A stretch of DNA of 64,000 nt from a virus. Made by a program: the position numbers and the translations under genes. Positions 50,492 to 56,379 of this stretch are shown here, piece after piece. Each line of letters begins with the position of its first letter. Positions within the stretch are counted from its first letter, which is position 1. The notes under the pieces were generated by a model. It was not told where the DNA came from, did not search any database, and saw only the letters and a program-made list of their open reading frames with translations. The stretch spans positions 27,195 to 91,194 of IMG/VR virus record IMGVR_UViG_3300009127_000250; one strand, written 5' to 3'.

Positions 50492-50992
50492 ATGGAAGAT
50501 ATTCGCTGTTCAGGCAGACATATTCTGATTGAAAATTTATTAGAGCAATGTGCCGATGAATGGAAAAATATGTGGCACAACGCTACGATCACAGATTGGC
50601 CTGAAATTGAGTCCGATAAAGAGTGGACATGGTTTTGGAGCTGGCTCGGGGATCAGTCTCATTTCTGGATAGACGATCTTCAAGAACTTATCAAAGAAGA
50701 TTTTGGACTTGACATGGTTCTTTATTTTTGGGGCCGGTCAAGCGCAACAGTAGCTCCGGACGGTTTTCTTAGTAAGTATTATAGAGAGCTTGGCGAAGAT
50801 ACCATTTTAGATCTGGAATATTATAGCGATCTCCAATGTCCGGACGAATATCTTGACGCTTACAATATCGCTAAAAATCACCTCGAAGCATTCCGGCTAA
50901 TCAACAAAACCGTCAAGGCCGGAGCCAGTGTGATCGCTAAGCAGTGGGAAGAAGCCAAAGAAGCTAACAAATGGGAATTTGATTGTGTATAA
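50492..50992 (+). CDS. hypothetical protein
   Basis: 166 aa, Trp/acidic-rich. Confidence 0.65.
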   Translation: MEDIRCSGRHILIENLLEQCADEWKNMWHNATITDWPEIESDKEWTWFWSWLGDQSHFWIDDLQELIKEDFGLDMVLYFWGRSSATVAPDGFLSKYYRELGEDTILDLEYYSDLQCPDEYLDAYNIAKNHLEAFRLINKTVKAGASVIAKQWEEAKEANKWEFDCV

Positions 50993-51784: not shown

Positions 51785-51871
51785 AGAGGGTACTACGGAA
51801 GCGGTCTGTAATCGGCCTTGAAAGCCGAGGGGTGGTAAAACATCGGGGTTCGAACCCTCTACCCTCTGCCA
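51785..51871 (+). tRNA. tRNA-Ser(TGA)
   Basis: TCGGC-CTTGAAA-GCCGA; long variable arm; GCCA end. Confidence 0.88.
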
Positions 51872-51881
51872 TAAAACAAAA

Positions 51882-51957
51882 GCCGGTATAGCTCCAACGG
51901 TAGAGCAGCGGGTTTGTAACCTGACGGTTGGGGGTTCAAATCCCTCTACCGGCTCCA
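51882..51957 (+). tRNA. tRNA-Thr(TGT)
   Basis: cloverleaf; TTTGTAA loop; CCA. Confidence 0.9.
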
Positions 51958-52019
51958 AAGTATCATTAAAGGCGCATATAGAACCTATATGTGCTTTTTA
52001 AGTATCAAAAGTATAATAA

Positions 52020-52106
52020 GGTGGGTTCGCACAGTCCGGTAGTGCAGTCGCCTGCTAAGCGACCGGTGTAAAAGCCTCACAGGTTCAAATCCTGTACCCA
52101 CCGCCA
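52020..52106 (+). tRNA. tRNA-Ser(GCT)
   Basis: GTCGC-CTGCTAA-GCGAC; variable arm; GCCA. Confidence 0.9.
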
Positions 52107-52107
52107 C

Positions 52108-52183
52108 GGATGGATAGCTCAGTTGATAGAGCAGCCGACTTTTAATCGGCATGTCGTAGGTTTAACCCCTACTCCATCCACCA
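52108..52183 (+). tRNA. tRNA-Lys(TTT)
   Basis: GCCGA-CTTTTAA-TCGGC; atypical TTTAACC T-loop. Confidence 0.85.
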
Positions 52184-52184
52184 T

Positions 52185-52260
52185 GGATGGATAGCTCAGT
52201 TGATAGAGCCGCCGGCTCATAACCGGCAGGTCGTAGGTTTAACTCCTACTCCATTCACCA
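52185..52260 (+). tRNA. tRNA with CAT anticodon (elongator Met or Ile2)
   Basis: GCCGG-CTCATAA-CCGGC; body nearly identical to the adjacent tRNA-Lys. Confidence 0.85.
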
Positions 52261-52261
52261 C

Positions 52262-52338
52262 GGGCGGGTAGCTCAGTTCGGTAGAGCAAACGGCCGATAA
52301 CCGTTAGGCCGCAAGTTCGAATCTTGCCCCGCCTACCA
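52262..52338 (+). tRNA. tRNA-Ile(GAT)
   Basis: AACGG-CCGATAA-CCGTT (C33); CCA. Confidence 0.85.
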
Positions 52339-52339
52339 C

Positions 52340-52415
52340 GGGCGCTCATGTTCCTCGGTGGCGACGGAGTCTCCAAAACTCTGTGTGGTAGGTTCAATTC
52401 CTACAGCGTTCGCCA
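52340..52415 (+). tRNA. tRNA-Trp(CCA)
   Basis: GGAGT-CTCCAAA-ACTCT; GGTTCAATTCC; GCCA. Confidence 0.85.
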
Positions 52416-52503
52416 TTTTAAAATATTTCTTTAATTGTTTTCTTACTAATAATAAACTTTTTTCTTGACATCTGCTAAGATGTCCATTACAAAGCAAAAA
52501 GAT

Positions 52504-52586
52504 CAGGTGCAGTAAGAGAAGGGCTACTTCGCTCATACCGAAAAACGGGCCTGGCCCGTTTAATCCCTTCTCAATTTTCTCTCCTG
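52504..52586 (+). ncRNA. candidate Ro60-binding (Y-like) RNA 1
   Basis: CAGG/CCTG and GAGAAGGG/CCCTTCTC stems; AGTAAG..GGGCTACTTCG..AATTTTCT shared with RNA 2; TTGACA at 52465. Confidence 0.65.
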
Positions 52587-52601
52587 TAACAATTTGGATA
52601 G

Positions 52602-52672
52602 CAGAGGAAGTAAGCTGAGGGCTACTTCGATAATTAGGCATTGAAAACCTCCCTCAACAATTTTCTCCTTTG
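52602..52672 (+). ncRNA. candidate Ro60-binding (Y-like) RNA 2
   Basis: CAGAGGA/TCCTTTG and TGAGGG/CCCTCA stems; same conserved motifs. Confidence 0.65.
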
Positions 52673-52685
52673 ACTTCGAATTAAA

Positions 52686-52730
52686 GCAGGACAGTAGATT
52701 TCATTATTAATTTACTGCCTGTTTTTTTTT
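52686..52730 (+). terminator. terminator closing the two-RNA unit
   Basis: CAGG-CAGTAGA/TTTACTG-CCTG + T9. Confidence 0.75.
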
Positions 52731-52780
52731 GCCTTGTATCTCTCTAATAGTAAGATTTAATTAAGAAAGGAGAAGCAAAA

Positions 52781-54325
52781 ATGGCACGATTTAATAAACC
52801 TACAGAAGTCCAAAGTCAAACGGTCAACCATGAGGGCGCTGTGGCCTATCAGATGGGTGCGGAGATGGAGTTGGTCACGATCCTGCTGACCTCTTTCGCC
52901 CAGGACAGTTATTACGAATCCGCTGATAAGACATTTGACAGGCTGATCGGTCTGATCGATGCACTCCCCGATAAAACATTTGCCGCTAAAGCTGCGATTT
53001 ATGCCCGTAACCAATTCGGTATGCGGTCAATCAGCCATGTCGTGGCCGGCGAGATCGCCGCTAAAGTGAAGGGCGAATCCTGGACAAAACGTTTTATTGA
53101 GCAAGTTGTCCGGAGACCGGACGATATGACTGAAATCCTCAGTTATTATCAGTCCAAATATGGCAGAACTCCGATCCCGAATTCTTTAAAGAAGGGCTTT
53201 GCCTTGGCCTTTAATAAATTTGACCGGTATCAGCTTGCTAAGTACCGTGGCGAACGGCAGGCCGTATCGTTGATCGATGTGGTTAATATTTCACATCCGG
53301 TTCCGACAGAACACAATAAAGAAGCTCTAAGGCTTCTGGTCGCTGACAAGCTGCGATCTGAGGACACCCGTGATGCTGTTATGACGGAAATCGGTCAGCG
53401 GGATATCAGCGATACCGAAAAGATTGAAAAGAAAGCCGAAGCATGGACTGATTTGCTCAAGACTGATTCACATGGCAGGCGTAAACTCGGGTACTTTGCA
53501 CTTGTCAAAAATCTGCGGAATATCATCGAGCAAGCTCCGGAGCAAATTGATACGGTCTGTGAGGCATTGATAGATACACAGGTTATCCGTAAATCCTTGG
53601 TAATGCCGTTTCGTCTTTATACGGCCTATAAGCAAATTCAGGATATCCACAACTATGAGGCTGTTAGGGTGCTGGACGCTCTCGCTACGGCGCTTAATCT
53701 GTCCTGTGAGAATATTCCAGGGCTTCCAGGTAACAGTATCATAGGTATCGATAATTCACATTCGATGAAAGGTAATTTAATTTCACCGAAAAGTGTTGTC
53801 ACAAGGGCTGATATCGCCTGTCTGTTGGGCGCCATGATGTTCGAAAGAACCGACAATACCGTTGTTATGCTGTTTGCTGATACCCATGAAATTGCACCGT
53901 TGATGAAATCAAACAGTGTGCTTGCCAATATGGAAATCATTCGCAGGGTTGACGTTGGTCTTGGTCATAACACCAATGGTTATTTGGTTCCCGAACAGGC
54001 AAGACGCAGCAATCTGCATGTTGACAACTTTTTGATTTTCACCGATCTGCAAATGTACGATGCCGAAGGTGTCAGGTATGATCGAACACCACCGACTCCT
54101 GGTCGGAGTTTCAAGAAAGAAATCACCAAATATCGCCGTGATGTAAATCCGAAAGCTAAGGTTTATTCGTTCGATTGTGCAGGCTATGGCACATTGCAAA
54201 TGCCTGCGGGCGATCCGAAGTCTTACCTTCTGGCTGGATTCAGTGAAAAGATGTTTGACACCATCAAACTGCTGGAAAAGGATCGGAACGCTTTTCTCAA
54301 TATGATTAAAACCATCGATCTATAA
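52781..54325 (+). CDS. TROVE domain protein (Ro60/Rsr homolog) with C-terminal VWA
   Basis: TVNHEG..AY, YAR...GMRS, RRPDD, F..YQLAKY, HP.P, AL.KNLRN, PFR..TAY, DNSHSM, FTD.Q, GFSEK. Confidence 0.93.
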   Translation: MARFNKPTEVQSQTVNHEGAVAYQMGAEMELVTILLTSFAQDSYYESADKTFDRLIGLIDALPDKTFAAKAAIYARNQFGMRSISHVVAGEIAAKVKGESWTKRFIEQVVRRPDDMTEILSYYQSKYGRTPIPNSLKKGFALAFNKFDRYQLAKYRGERQAVSLIDVVNISHPVPTEHNKEALRLLVADKLRSEDTRDAVMTEIGQRDISDTEKIEKKAEAWTDLLKTDSHGRRKLGYFALVKNLRNIIEQAPEQIDTVCEALIDTQVIRKSLVMPFRLYTAYKQIQDIHNYEAVRVLDALATALNLSCENIPGLPGNSIIGIDNSHSMKGNLISPKSVVTRADIACLLGAMMFERTDNTVVMLFADTHEIAPLMKSNSVLANMEIIRRVDVGLGHNTNGYLVPEQARRSNLHVDNFLIFTDLQMYDAEGVRYDRTPPTPGRSFKKEITKYRRDVNPKAKVYSFDCAGYGTLQMPAGDPKSYLLAGFSEKMFDTIKLLEKDRNAFLNMIKTIDL

Positions 54326-54330
54326 CGTAA

Positions 54331-54420
54331 ACATGGGGGAAAGTCTCACGTCTTTAATCTGGCTACGCCAATGCCAGGGAGTTAGTCACTCCAATTACCG
54401 GTACGTGAGCCTTCCCCTGT
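54331..54420 (+). ncRNA. structured RNA candidate after TROVE, complementary to array unit 3
   Basis: outer stem GGGGAA..CTCACGT/ACGTGAG..TTCCCC; inner hairpins CTGGC/GCCAG and GGAGT/ACTCC. Confidence 0.65.
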
Positions 54421-54443
54421 TTTTAACCAGGAGAATATAATCC

Positions 54444-54761
54444 ATGCACGACTATATTATCAAAGAAATGGCTGATTTGGTCTGCAAAGAAATTGGATCG
54501 GCAGACTTTCCAGCAGAAACTAAGATCAGCGAAAAAGTTGAATCAGCTTTAGAGCAGTATTGGGCAGATAAGATCGCCTGTATTTGGTCGGTTGAAGATG
54601 TTCATTTTCAGGCCAAACAGGACGAAGTCAAAGTCACCGATGAACAGGCCGTAGAGGTCTTGGAACTTGTCCACAGGAAGATGGACGCTAATTTAGGCAT
54701 TAATTGGGATGTGCTTAGCGAAGGCATCAGTACAATTTTAAGGGAACAGGAAAGCCTATGA
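54444..54761 (+). CDS. hypothetical phage protein
   Basis: AGGAG RBS; IW.VEDV...DA..GINWD pattern. Confidence 0.7.
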   Translation: MHDYIIKEMADLVCKEIGSADFPAETKISEKVESALEQYWADKIACIWSVEDVHFQAKQDEVKVTDEQAVEVLELVHRKMDANLGINWDVLSEGISTILREQESL

Positions 54762-55144
54762 CAGTTCAATGCGAAAACTGCAGCAAACAGTTCAATGAAT
54801 CAAAAATTCTTTTTAAGTTGATTGAAATCCAGAATTTATTTGAACGGATTGCACCCGGGGACATTGTGCCTTTTGGTGAATGTCCGGAATGCGATTCGTT
54901 TGTGTATCCATACGTGCAGCCTATCCGCGTTCTTTGGGGATCAGATCAAAACGGACATACTTTTGAAAGCTTTAATTCAGAACATGAAAAAAAGGGATAT
55001 CTACAAGCCTTGGACGACCATGCTGGATGGCTTGAATCCGAAGTGTTTCATCCCGACAAAAATGGAAAATTTGAACCTCTGGAAGATGGAATAAGAGAAG
55101 ATTTAATACAATGCGGTTATTCAGAGGATGATCTTGAATGGTAA
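54758..55144 (+). CDS. Zn-finger hypothetical protein
   Basis: CENC...CPEC. Confidence 0.65.
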   Translation: MTVQCENCSKQFNESKILFKLIEIQNLFERIAPGDIVPFGECPECDSFVYPYVQPIRVLWGSDQNGHTFESFNSEHEKKGYLQALDDHAGWLESEVFHPDKNGKFEPLEDGIREDLIQCGYSEDDLEW

Positions 55145-55151
55145 AAAACAT

Positions 55152-55228
55152 GGTGGGGATGGTGAAGCGGTCAACACGAAGGATTGTGGCTCCTTTATTC
55201 GCGGGTTCAAATCCCGTTCCTCACCCCA
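55152..55228 (+). tRNA. tRNA-His(GTG)
   Basis: G-1; AAGGA-TTGTGGC-TCCTT; CCCA end. Confidence 0.9.
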
Positions 55229-55236
55229 CATAATAT

Positions 55237-55314
55237 TGGGGAGTAGGTCAGTCTGGTCAGACGGCCGGCCTTGGGAGCCGGAGGTCGCCGGTTCAAATCC
55301 GGCCTCCCCAACCA
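55237..55314 (+). tRNA. tRNA-Pro(TGG)
   Basis: CCGGC-CTTGGGA-GCCGG; ACCA. Confidence 0.9.
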
Positions 55315-55322
55315 TTTTATAT

Positions 55323-55401
55323 ACGGGCGTAGCAGAATTGGCATATGCTGCGGGCTTAGACCCCGTGTATTCTGGAGGTTCGACTCCTCTCGCCCGTACC
55401 A
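55323..55401 (+). tRNA. tRNA-Leu(TAG) with short variable region
   Basis: GCGGG-CTTAGAC-CCCGT; GGTTCGACTCC; ACCA. Confidence 0.85.
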
Positions 55402-55599: not shown

Positions 55600-56379
55600 A
55601 TGAAGCTTTATGATCTAACAAATATTTCGTTTGACAATAAAATCACCCCCACCTTTGCCTGCGTCTTTGACCGGCATGCCTTTATTTCACACGTTCTGCG
55701 GTGCAAATATGAAAGAGGCGGCTACGAACTTAATGAAACCAAAGTGATTTTATTTAAGCTGGCCTCACAGATCTATCGCAATCCAATCTATTTTGATGCA
55801 TTTACCAGAAATGTATTTGTTGATCGTGATGTGTCGGACATGAACCGACTCGGTGCTTGCCCTGTCAGAGCAGAATTCGAACACGCATTTGTGTTCGGCA
55901 GCATCCGTGAAGCTTTCTGGATCAGAGGCTATACCAAAATTGAAGGCAAGCCCAAAACTCTATGGGGCGATCTCATTGCCATTCATCCGTTCGGCCAGGA
56001 CGATCCCTGGGGCGGCTGGCACTCCTATTACATCCTCAAAGAATCCAACCCTATCCATCAAAAGTGGGTCACTCGGAACGAATACAAAGGCATTCTGAAA
56101 CGCTACGGTCAGTCCGCAACGTATGTCAGTTATGCAATTTCATTTCCGTGGAAGCGATATAAAACCTATTTCGAAAAAAATGGCGAGTTCAGCAAAGCTT
56201 TTATTGAAGGTCATTTTGGGATCAGCGTCAAGGATTTCTGGCGCAACTGTAAACACGGCAATTATGAGCATATTAAGCAGCTCAAAAAAGAGCGCAGACT
56301 TGCCCCATCCCGATTCGTTCCGGGCGTAACAAAATTTGATCGCGGACCTCAGCCCGTACAGACAGCATTATTTAATTAG
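55600..56379 (+). CDS. hypothetical protein
   Basis: 259-aa ORF. Confidence 0.7.
   Translation: MKLYDLTNISFDNKITPTFACVFDRHAFISHVLRCKYERGGYELNETKVILFKLASQIYRNPIYFDAFTRNVFVDRDVSDMNRLGACPVRAEFEHAFVFGSIREAFWIRGYTKIEGKPKTLWGDLIAIHPFGQDDPWGGWHSYYILKESNPIHQKWVTRNEYKGILKRYGQSATYVSYAISFPWKRYKTYFEKNGEFSKAFIEGHFGISVKDFWRNCKHGNYEHIKQLKKERRLAPSRFVPGVTKFDRGPQPVQTALFN

What the first reader, a model, noticed from the sequence alone, without database searches (positions are those of the whole stretch)
52465..54325. Phage Ro60/TROVE with a dedicated transcription unit of two paralogous Y-like RNAs
Seen: TTGACA (52465), a -10-like TACAAA 17 bp later, two RNAs sharing AGTAAG..GGGCTACTTCG..CCCT..CAATTTTCT, a T9 terminator, then the TROVE-VWA gene. 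The RNAs' 5' and 3' ends pair through different but compensatory stems (GAGAAGGG/CCCTTCTC vs TGAGGG/CCCTCA). The unit sits between two tRNA clusters. Known: Ro60 binds Y RNAs at an end-to-end stem, and bacterial Ro60 loci relate to RNA damage and repair. These RNAs lack an obvious YrlA-type tRNA-like D/T domain, so they may be a different Ro60-RNA class. No RtcB is visible in this window.
Basis: partly seen in the sequence, partly recalled or inferred. Interest (0 to 1): 0.75.

Follow-up and report, generated by a model that had tools for sequence, protein, structure and literature searches.

The report
Phage Ro60 with two minimal Y RNAs
A marine phage encodes the ring-shaped RNA-binding protein Ro60 and, just upstream, two small partner RNAs. 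They keep the conserved two-helix "handle" of bacterial Y RNAs but lack the tRNA look-alike domain, so this is a stripped-down version of a known protein-RNA system, not a new one.

Summary
Two small RNAs (52504-52586 and 52602-52672, + strand) lie between a sigma-70-like promoter and a strong T9 terminator, directly upstream of a full-length Ro60 (TROVE+vWA) gene and between two tRNA clusters.

They share a two-helix "handle": outer stem, 1-nt bulge, AG:CU, a UAA x AAUUUU internal loop, an 8-bp inner stem, then CUACUUCG. A covariance model of this handle finds about 250 further copies. All significant ones lie on the TROVE strand, mostly in tandem arrays (up to 9) upstream of TROVE genes, in phages and in Bacteroidota and Verrucomicrobiota genomes. 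Both helices covary strongly (93-95% paired against 41-61% in controls).

Long family members carry T, acceptor-like and D arms in YrlA order and hit Rfam YrlA (RF02553) below its threshold. The window's two RNAs are the short, tRNA-less form, comparable to YrlB or to phiLo Yrl1/Yrl2.

They are therefore Y RNAs of the known Ro60 system. They are a variant with a diverged handle that Rfam does not capture, not a separate class. Ro60 binding, expression and function are inferred, not shown.

This scan has already reported the same handle family beside phage Ro60 genes on other DNA. No RtcB, RNA ligase or CCA-adding enzyme is found in the 91-kb phage record.

The parts
52465..52493 (+). sigma-70-like promoter candidate: -35 TTGACA (52465-70), 17-nt spacer, -10-like TACAAA (52488-93). 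The predicted start is about 52500, 4 nt before RNA-A.
   Evidence: Read from the sequence. Not reported by the consensus scan because the -10 lacks the final T. Inferred only.
52504..52586 (+). Y RNA-like RNA-A (83 nt). Outer stem CAGG.G/C.CCUG, AG:CU (52511-12 with 52579-80), loop UAA x AAUUUU, inner stem GAGAAGGG/CCCUUCUC (52516-23 with 52565-72), box CUACUUCG (52524-31), and two small apical hairpins.
   Evidence: R1 55.3 bits, E 1e-9. R2 (bacterial seeds only) 50.7 bits, E 5e-11. Fold.
52602..52672 (+). Y RNA-like RNA-B (71 nt). Outer stem CAGAGG/CCUUUG with bulged A52608, AG:CU (52609-10 with 52665-66), loop UAA x AAUUUU, inner stem GCUGAGGG/CCCUCAAC (52614-21 with 52651-58), box CUACUUCG (52622-29), and one apical hairpin UUCGAU/AUUGAA.
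   Evidence: R1 59.3 bits, E 1e-10. R2 42.5 bits, E 8e-9. Fold.
52684..52730 (+). Intrinsic terminator: a 13-bp hairpin with one bulged A, followed by U9.
   Evidence: -22.3 kcal/mol against -6.6 for shuffles, z -7.2, 0 of 200 shuffles as good. Equivalent terminators follow the RNA pair in L001, L031, L038, L048, L050, L067 and L071.
52781..54325 (+). Ro60 orthologue (514 aa): TROVE HEAT-repeat ring plus vWA domain with MIDAS DxSxS (D324-N-S-H-S328). RBS GGAG at 52769-72.
   Evidence: Pfam TROVE E 7.5e-14, vWA_Ro60 E 1e-4. PDB sequence matches: phiLo Ro60 9KOP/9L5Y E 3.6e-16, Xenopus Ro60 1YVP E 1.6e-5. AlphaFold model pLDDT 79.7, Foldseek TM 0.58-0.71 to all solved Ro60/Rsr structures. DxSxS is invariant in alignments A1 and A5.
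51785..52415 (+). Upstream tRNA array (Ser, Thr, Ser, Lys, Met, Ile, Trp). No terminator lies between it and the RNA pair.
   Evidence: ARAGORN and Rfam.
55153..55401 (+). Downstream tRNA array (His, Pro, Leu).
   Evidence: ARAGORN and Rfam.

Best explanation
The locus encodes a phage Ro60 ribonucleoprotein: the Ro60 ring protein plus two tandem, minimal Y RNAs.

The RNAs are probably made as one transcript of about 230 nt. It would start either at the TTGACA/TACAAA promoter or as the tail of the upstream tRNA transcript, and would end at the T9 terminator. It would then be cut in the AU-rich spacers into an 83-nt and a 71-nt RNA.

Each RNA folds into the conserved handle: outer stem, single bulged base, AG:CU, asymmetric internal loop (5' URA against 3' RNNUUUU), 8-bp inner stem, then the (N)UACUUCG box. 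This handle occupies the same position as the Ro60-binding module and 'anticodon stem' with its UA kink in YrlA. It is the part inferred to dock on Ro60.

Where YrlA carries a tRNA-like effector domain, these RNAs carry only one or two short hairpins and an A-rich single strand. By analogy with Deinococcus Yrn1, Salmonella YrlA/YrlB and Thermus phage phiLo Yrl1/Yrl2, the RNAs would gate access to the Ro60 cavity and/or tether Ro60 to a host single-strand RNA-binding exonuclease such as PNPase. That would redirect decay or quality control of structured RNAs (tRNAs, rRNA) during infection.

Shown here: the structure, its conservation and covariation, exclusive linkage to TROVE genes, and the Ro60 fold.
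Inferred: transcription, processing, Ro60 binding and the downstream function.
For: Linkage to TROVE genes
- An exact-pattern scan of IMG/VR gave 71 loci. The 11 that also match the CM all carry or may carry TROVE: 9 hold a TROVE gene in the fetched piece, one has it about 240 nt downstream in its record, and one ends 444 nt after the RNAs.
- The other 60 pattern matches (488 kb searched with L007 and L036) have no CM match.
- R1 finds 76 same-strand copies in the window plus 32 phage and metagenome TROVE loci.
- R1 finds 176 hits in 69 of 80 bacterial TROVE loci, all on the TROVE strand and all but one upstream.
- In five whole genomes (about 32 Mb) the only 4 hits lie at TROVE loci.

Structure
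- Paired cells are 93.1% (A4) and 95.1% (A6), against 50-61% and 41-61% when the partner is slid.
- 14 of 15 pairs change on both sides, and 0 of 500 shuffles reach the observed score.

Homology to Y RNAs
- Long members with the same handle carry T, AS and D arms in YrlA order. They match RF02553 YrlA end to end at 43.1 and 33.1 bits, E 1e-6 to 1e-8.
- CcrColossus, which PMC12135203 lists (citing Chen et al. 2014) among phages with Y RNA-like RNAs, has five upstream RNAs with the same architecture and the same UACUUCG box.
- R2, built without any phage or window sequence, recovers both window RNAs and nothing else in the window.

Protein
- Ro60 fold and an intact MIDAS motif.

Precedent
- Phage Ro60 binds two upstream tRNA-less Yrl RNAs and forms ternary complexes with host PNPase (PMC12135203).
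- Bacterial Y RNAs lie within 4 kb of Ro60 on the same strand, and more than one per species is usual (PMC4201824).
Against: - There is no expression or binding evidence for this phage.
- The RNAs do not match Rfam YrlA even at E<=10.
- They lack the literal GNCGAAN0-1G motif. AGUAAG sits at the equivalent place.
- R1 and R2 do not detect the CcrColossus, Vibrio phage or HGTV-1 loci. The link to classical YrlA therefore rests on shared architecture and sub-threshold Rfam matches of the long members.
- The promoter is weak.
- How the Ro60 gene itself is transcribed past a strong terminator is unresolved.
- RNA-B (71 nt) is below the 80-130 nt range quoted for characterised Y RNAs.
Confidence: 0.85

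Rival explanations
1. The two elements act in cis as a leader or attenuator of the Ro60 mRNA, for example as Ro60 autoregulatory binding sites that control read-through of the T9 terminator, rather than as stable trans-acting RNAs.
For: They lie directly upstream on the same strand. A strong terminator sits between them and the gene, and no convincing separate promoter for the gene was found.
Against: In related loci the same RNAs lie 1.6-2.8 kb downstream of TROVE (L006, L018, L054). In others a small ORF lies between them and TROVE (L048, L050, L067, L071). They also occur in arrays of up to 9. Long members are YrlA-like, a class shown to be stable Ro60-bound RNAs (PMC4201824).
Confidence: 0.05
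2. They are functional small RNAs of the handle family, but their real partner is a host or phage protein other than the adjacent Ro60, such as a tRNA-processing or decay enzyme.
For: Binding has not been tested. The most conserved box (UACUUCG) and the A-rich tract have no assigned contact.
Against: Every significant CM hit in about 1.2 Mb of loci and about 32 Mb of genomes is next to a TROVE gene on the same strand, apart from L007, where the contig ends 444 nt after the RNAs. No other neighbouring gene is conserved with the RNAs.
Confidence: 0.05
3. They are decaying remnants of YrlA genes that lost the tRNA-like domain and no longer function.
For: They lack the effector domain that dominates the YrlA model.
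Against: Both copies keep every invariant handle position and both helices through compensatory changes. Short forms make up 45 of 76 family members, and they are the only form in several independent phage lineages.
Confidence: 0.03
4. It is a chance repeat, or an artefact of AT-rich intergenic sequence.
For: 60 of the 71 exact-pattern matches in IMG/VR were indeed chance.
Against: CM E-values are 1e-9 to 5e-11 from two models, with covariation and exclusive TROVE linkage.
Confidence: 0.01

Closest known systems
Thermus phage phiLo Ro60 with Yrl1 and Yrl2 (PMC12135203; PDB 9KOP, 9L5Y)
   Same: A phage-encoded Ro60 with two short Y-like RNAs directly upstream on the same strand. The RNAs have a stem-bulge-stem shape and no tRNA-like domain. 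phiLo Ro60 is the best PDB sequence match of the window protein (E 3.6e-16).
   Different: The proteins share only about 20% identity. The phiLo RNAs were defined by a CGAA motif in an internal bulge; RNA-A has a CGAA only in its apical hairpin, and RNA-B has none. I could not fetch the phiLo locus, so the handle model was not run on it.
YrlA (Rfam RF02553; Chen et al. 2014, PMC4201824; Wang et al. 2018, 10.1101/312249)
   Same: Same genomic rule: within a few kb of Ro60, on the same strand, often beside tRNAs, and often several copies. Same two-helix module: outer stem, asymmetric internal loop, inner 'anticodon-like' stem, conserved UA. Long RNAs sharing the window's handle have V/T/AS/D arms in YrlA order and match RF02553 end to end below its threshold.
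   Different: The window RNAs have no T, AS or D arms and no RF02553 match at E<=10. The GNCGAAN0-1G box is replaced at the equivalent position by G[N]AGU(G/A)A. The box (N)UACUUCG is much more conserved than in the Rfam consensus (CUAc).
YrlB / Yrn2-type second Y RNAs (Salmonella, M. smegmatis, D. radiodurans; PMC4201824)
   Same: A second, shorter Ro60-bound RNA encoded beside the first one. It lacks a full tRNA-like domain. In M. smegmatis it is processed with YrlA from one precursor upstream of rsr.
   Different: YrlB-type RNAs have no defined family model and 'eluded bioinformatic discovery'. No sequence was available to compare. Here both RNAs of the locus are of the short type.
Metazoan Y RNAs with Ro60 (Xenopus 1YVP)
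   Same: A terminal stem with a bulged nucleotide serves as the Ro60 docking site, with a variable effector loop. The protein has the same fold (TM 0.65-0.71).
   Different: There is no sequence similarity in the RNA (no RF00019 match). Transcription would end at an intrinsic terminator, not by Pol III.

Membership tests
Ro60 / Rsr protein (TROVE + vWA) | TROVE HEAT-repeat ring domain | tested here: met
   Pfam PF05731 at 52.2 bits against a cut-off of 23. Foldseek TM 0.58-0.71 to every solved Ro60/Rsr.
Ro60 / Rsr protein (TROVE + vWA) | C-terminal vWA domain with a MIDAS motif | tested here: met
   PF25045 at 22.6 bits, under its cut-off of 27.7. DxSxS (D324, S326, S328) is invariant in A1 and A5. 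The model shows a Rossmann-like beta/alpha region at 319-510 that aligns with vWA domains.
Y RNA (Ro60-associated ncRNA, general) | Encoded close to the Ro60 gene on the same strand | tested here: met
   109-277 nt upstream, + strand.
Y RNA (Ro60-associated ncRNA, general) | 5' and 3' ends pair into a long, bulged stem that holds the Ro60 site | tested here: met
   Two covarying helices with a conserved single-base bulge.
Y RNA (Ro60-associated ncRNA, general) | Length of 80-130 nt | tested here: inconclusive
   RNA-A is 83 nt. RNA-B is 71 nt by its helix ends. The true ends are unknown.
Y RNA (Ro60-associated ncRNA, general) | Physically bound and stabilised by Ro60 | not testable with these tools
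   Needs RIP or EMSA.
YrlA (Rfam RF02553) | Reaches the Rfam gathering score (69 bits) | tested here: not met
   No match even at E<=10 over 52400-55200.
YrlA (Rfam RF02553) | tRNA-like effector domain (T, AS and D arms) | tested here: not met
   No tRNA or YrlA match and no GGTTCRA T-loop motif.
YrlA (Rfam RF02553) | GNCGAAN0-1G motif near the 5' end | tested here: not met
   The equivalent position reads gCAGUAAG in RNA-A and gAAGUAAG in RNA-B. Equivalence comes from the cmscan alignment of a long family member.
YrlA (Rfam RF02553) | Ro60-binding module: outer stem, internal loop, inner stem, UA kink | tested here: met
   The architecture matches the RF02553 consensus structure. It is shared with long members that match RF02553 below threshold.
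TROVE-linked 'handle' RNA family defined here (models R1, R2) | Significant match to a covariance model of the handle | tested here: met
   R1 55.3 and 59.3 bits. R2, built without window or phage sequences, 50.7 and 42.5 bits.
phiLo Yrl1/Yrl2-type short phage Y RNAs | Stem-bulge-stem RNA with a CGAA motif, upstream of a phage Ro60 gene | tested here: inconclusive
   Position and shape fit. CGAA occurs only in RNA-A (52538-41), and there in an apical hairpin.

The most novel reading that the evidence does not exclude
The handle-only RNAs are a functionally distinct, effector-less class of Y RNA. In phages that carry only short forms (this one, and L031, L048, L050, L067, L071), Ro60 would be loaded with RNAs that merely gate its cavity, or that present an A-rich single strand to host PNPase. 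A tRNA-rich phage with no RtcB or RNA ligase could use this to redirect host RNA decay, for example to clear tRNAs damaged by host anticodon nucleases or to blunt RNA-based defence.
Probability: 0.15. Interest if true: 0.65.

Novelty: new variant of a known kind. Interest (0 to 1): 0.42.

Why it matters
Ro60 with Y RNAs is an established RNA quality-control particle, and phage versions are already known, so the system itself is not new. This locus and its family add three things.

1. A covariation-supported definition of a diverged Ro60 "handle". Neither Rfam nor the published GNCGAA motif captures it. It detects both tRNA-like and tRNA-less partners, and the tRNA-less type has been hard to find by computation.
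2. Evidence that such RNAs form arrays of up to nine copies beside Ro60 in Bacteroidota and Verrucomicrobiota (including an Akkermansia muciniphila MAG) and in marine, gut and huge phages.
3. A natural minimal Y RNA of about 70-83 nt, which is a convenient substrate for structural and binding work on how bacterial-type Ro60 recognises its RNA.

Tried and rejected
- Rfam cmscan at the gathering score and at E<=10 gave nothing for the two RNAs or for the element behind the gene.
- A protein-pattern scan of IMG/VR with the single protein found no relatives.
The contigs of the closest protein relatives (P0002 at 70%, P0003 and P0004 at 55-56%) could not be fetched that way. Only one 56% relative (L075) was obtained, through the metagenome scan.
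- The look-up of sequencing runs listed no RNA holder, only DNA runs labelled marine or seawater metagenome.
- R1 and R2 on Caulobacter phage CcrColossus, Vibrio phage phiTY18 and HGTV-1 gave no hits. Streptomyces phage BRock gave only partial, weak hits (E 0.02-0.25). The models do not span the whole Y RNA superfamily.
- A third helix (UUCN pairing with a downstream NGAA) can form in both window RNAs, but it is only weakly enriched in the family: 30 of 76 against 19.6 expected. I do not claim it.
- The flanking ORFs (54444-54761, 54758-55144, 50492-50992, the DUF1643 gene, 55600-56379) are not conserved next to TROVE in any fetched locus.
- RtcB, PolyA_pol/CCA-adding enzyme and RNA_ligase Pfam families are absent from the 91-kb record.
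- The - strand ORF at 52333-52641 overlaps tRNA-Trp and both RNAs, and I dismissed it as spurious.
- The review PMC10870794 is not held.
- Complex prediction was not used, because it does not take RNA chains.
Full report
**What is in the sequence**

- TTGACA lies at 52465-52470, followed by a 17-nt spacer and TACAAA at 52488-52493.
- Two segments share AGUAAG, GGGCUACUUCG and CAAUUUUCU.
- A 13-bp hairpin plus U9 lies at 52684-52730. It folds at -22.3 kcal/mol against -6.6 for shuffles (z -7.2).
- A 514-aa ORF at 52781-54325 follows a GGAG ribosome-binding site.
- ARAGORN and Rfam place seven tRNAs at 51785-52415 and three at 55153-55401.
- No terminator separates the upstream tRNA array from the RNAs, so they could also be the tail of the tRNA transcript.

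**The protein is Ro60**

- Pfam gives TROVE (E 7.5e-14) and the Ro60 vWA domain just under its cut-off.
- The best solved relatives by sequence are Thermus phage phiLo Ro60 (9KOP/9L5Y, E 3.6e-16) and Xenopus Ro60.
- An AlphaFold model (pLDDT 79.7) superposes on every solved Ro60/Rsr structure with TM 0.58-0.71.
- The MIDAS DxSxS motif is invariant among relatives.
- The window lies in a 91-kb IMG/VR virus record estimated 93% complete.
- That record has no RtcB, CCA-adding enzyme or RNA ligase family match.
- The DNA is held by sequencing runs labelled marine or seawater metagenome.

**Anatomy of the two RNAs**

Both fold the same way.
- The outer stem is CAGG.G/C.CCUG in RNA-A and CAGAGG/CCUUUG in RNA-B.
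- A bulged base follows, and then an invariant AG paired with CU.
- The internal loop has UAA on the 5' side and AAUUUU on the 3' side.
- The inner stem has 8 bp: GAGAAGGG/CCCUUCUC in A and GCUGAGGG/CCCUCAAC in B.
- Directly after the inner stem comes CUACUUCG.
- The apex differs. RNA-A has two small hairpins; RNA-B has one hairpin and an A-rich strand.
A second compensatory helix closes the ends.

**Is the motif linked to TROVE genes?**

- The nearest phage relative of the protein is a 635-kb uncultured phage (40.6% identity). It has the same boxes upstream of its TROVE gene.
- An exact-pattern scan of IMG/VR returned 71 loci. Nine of them hold a TROVE gene on the same strand.
- I built a covariance model, R1, from 29 short copies.
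- Over the window plus 32 TROVE loci it found 77 matches at E<=1. Of these, 76 are on the TROVE strand and mostly in tandem arrays upstream of the gene.
- Of the 62 pattern-matched loci without a visible TROVE gene, only two match R1. One has TROVE about 240 nt downstream in its full record. The other ends 444 nt after the RNAs. The remaining 60 were chance matches.
- In 80 bacterial TROVE loci from GTDB genomes (Saprospiraceae, Lewinella, Hymenobacter, Verrucomicrobiales, Akkermansia, SAR202, Saccharimonadales and others), R1 gave 176 hits at E<=0.01.
- Those hits fall in 69 loci. All are on the TROVE strand, and all but one are upstream, with up to nine per locus.
- In five whole genomes (about 32 Mb) the only four hits are at TROVE loci.
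- The phage's own genome holds only the two copies.
- A second model, R2, was built solely from bacterial and metagenome hits. It recovers both window RNAs (E 5e-11 and 8e-9) and nothing else in the window.

**Structure support**

- On the 76-sequence alignment, 93.1% of cells pair, against 50-61% when partners are slid or shuffled.
- On that alignment 14 of 15 pairs change on both sides, and no shuffle reaches the observed covariation.
- The 93 bacterial copies give 95.1% against 41-61% when partners are slid and 73% when shuffled.
- These alignments are fitted to the model, which favours the structure, but the margin is large.
- Invariant or nearly invariant positions are A-G-U-R-A at the 5' loop, U-A-C-U-U-C after the inner stem, and UUUU-CU on the 3' side.

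**Relation to known Y RNAs**

- Rfam 15 contains YrlA (RF02553).
- The window RNAs do not match it even at E<=10.
- Long members of the R1 family do match it, end to end but below the gathering score: L075:1298-1424 at 43.1 bits and L081:590-709 at 33.1 bits.
- These long members carry a T arm, a closed acceptor-like hairpin and a D arm, in the permuted order described for YrlA (PMC4201824, section 6).
- The cmscan alignment shows that the RF02553 consensus has the same plan: outer stem, asymmetric internal loop, inner stem, then an unpaired CUA.
- The published GNCGAAN0-1G motif (gGCgaAUG in the consensus) sits at the junction of outer stem and loop. In the R1 family, G[N]AGU(G/A)A sits at that position.
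- The conserved UA of UACUUCG corresponds to the UA kink of the YrlA 'anticodon stem' (10.1101/312249).
- PMC12135203, citing Chen et al. 2014, names Caulobacter phage CcrColossus among phages with Y RNA-like RNAs. It has five tandem upstream RNAs with GGUGGCGUAG...(A/U)UACUUCG...CUUGUUCCCC.
- Streptomyces phage BRock has four with GAUGCGUAG...UUACUUC.
- The box and the architecture therefore extend across the superfamily, although R1 and R2 do not score those loci.
- Among the 76 copies, 45 are short (100 nt or less, with no T-loop motif apart from one 91-nt copy) and 31 are long (23 with a T-loop motif).
- Several phage lineages, like this window, carry short forms only.

**Mechanism**

The best-supported reading is a phage Ro60 particle with two minimal Y RNAs. 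The handle is the inferred Ro60 docking site. The tRNA-like effector module of YrlA is replaced by small hairpins and an A-rich strand.

By analogy with Deinococcus, Salmonella and especially phiLo, the RNAs would gate Ro60 and/or tether it to a host exonuclease. In phiLo, two upstream tRNA-less RNAs bind phage Ro60 and form ternary complexes with host PNPase (PMC12135203).

Transcription, processing, binding and function are all inferred. No RNA data set holding this phage was listed.

The rivals are each disfavoured by the linkage, array and covariation data. They are a cis-acting leader, a partner other than Ro60, decayed remnants, and chance.

**Novelty**

Phage Ro60 genes, Y RNAs beside them, several Y RNAs per locus, proximity to tRNAs and tRNA-less Y RNAs are all in print (PMC4201824, PMC12135203). 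The specific handle family is absent from Rfam. I found it described in none of the papers I could search.

Earlier notes of this same scan already report the same handle beside phage Ro60 genes on other DNA, and my reading agrees with them. I rate it a new variant of a known kind, of moderate interest.

**Limits**

The phiLo, Salmonella and mycobacterial short Y RNAs could not be aligned.

Noticed in passing
window 54333-54425 (+): Directly after the Ro60 stop codon lies a three-way-junction element. A 15-bp bulged stem (GGGGGAAAGUCUCACGU / ACGUGAGCCUUCCCC) encloses two hairpins and is followed by U5 (-39.4 kcal/mol, z -3.7). It matches neither R1, R2 nor any Rfam family. Relatives have a plain terminator (L001) or nothing comparable (L075) at this place. 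It could be an elaborate terminator or a 3'-end-derived RNA.
   Followed up: partly
L001:2625-2915 and L038 (about 6060 down to 5770, - strand): In the 635-kb uncultured phage LR745206 and an IMG/VR relative, the second RNA upstream of TROVE has the same UACUUCG box and closing stem. It encloses an insert of about 230-290 nt with no tRNA-like motifs, which would be a different cargo on the same handle.
   Followed up: partly
L002:2666-2738 and 2811-2884 (OR575929); L099:2173-2240 (JX100810): Genes annotated in GenBank as tRNA-Tyr and tRNA-Lys of crAss-like phage csAssE-Sib, and as tRNA-Gln of CcrColossus, lie inside handle-flanked Y RNA-like units upstream of the Ro60 gene. They are probably the tRNA-like domains of Y RNAs rather than free-standing tRNAs.
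   Followed up: partly
L181:484-1828; L182:1884-2470: A Chthoniobacteraceae MAG has nine tandem handle RNAs upstream of its TROVE gene. An Akkermansia muciniphila MAG has four. Ro60 of gut commensals is discussed as a lupus-related antigen, but I found no description of their Y RNAs.
   Followed up: no
L105:1847-2290 (IMG/VR contig end): Here two handle RNAs are followed by tRNA genes up to the contig end, with no TROVE gene visible. This is the only handle locus where linkage could not be confirmed.
   Followed up: partly
L100:5079-5242 (Streptomyces phage BRock): A sub-threshold match to the manA RNA motif (49.7 bits against a gathering score of 55.2) lies between tRNA genes downstream of the Ro60 gene.
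   Followed up: no
window 52333-52641 (-): A 102-aa ORF on the opposite strand overlaps tRNA-Trp and both Y RNAs. It is almost certainly spurious, but a gene caller could annotate it.
   Followed up: no
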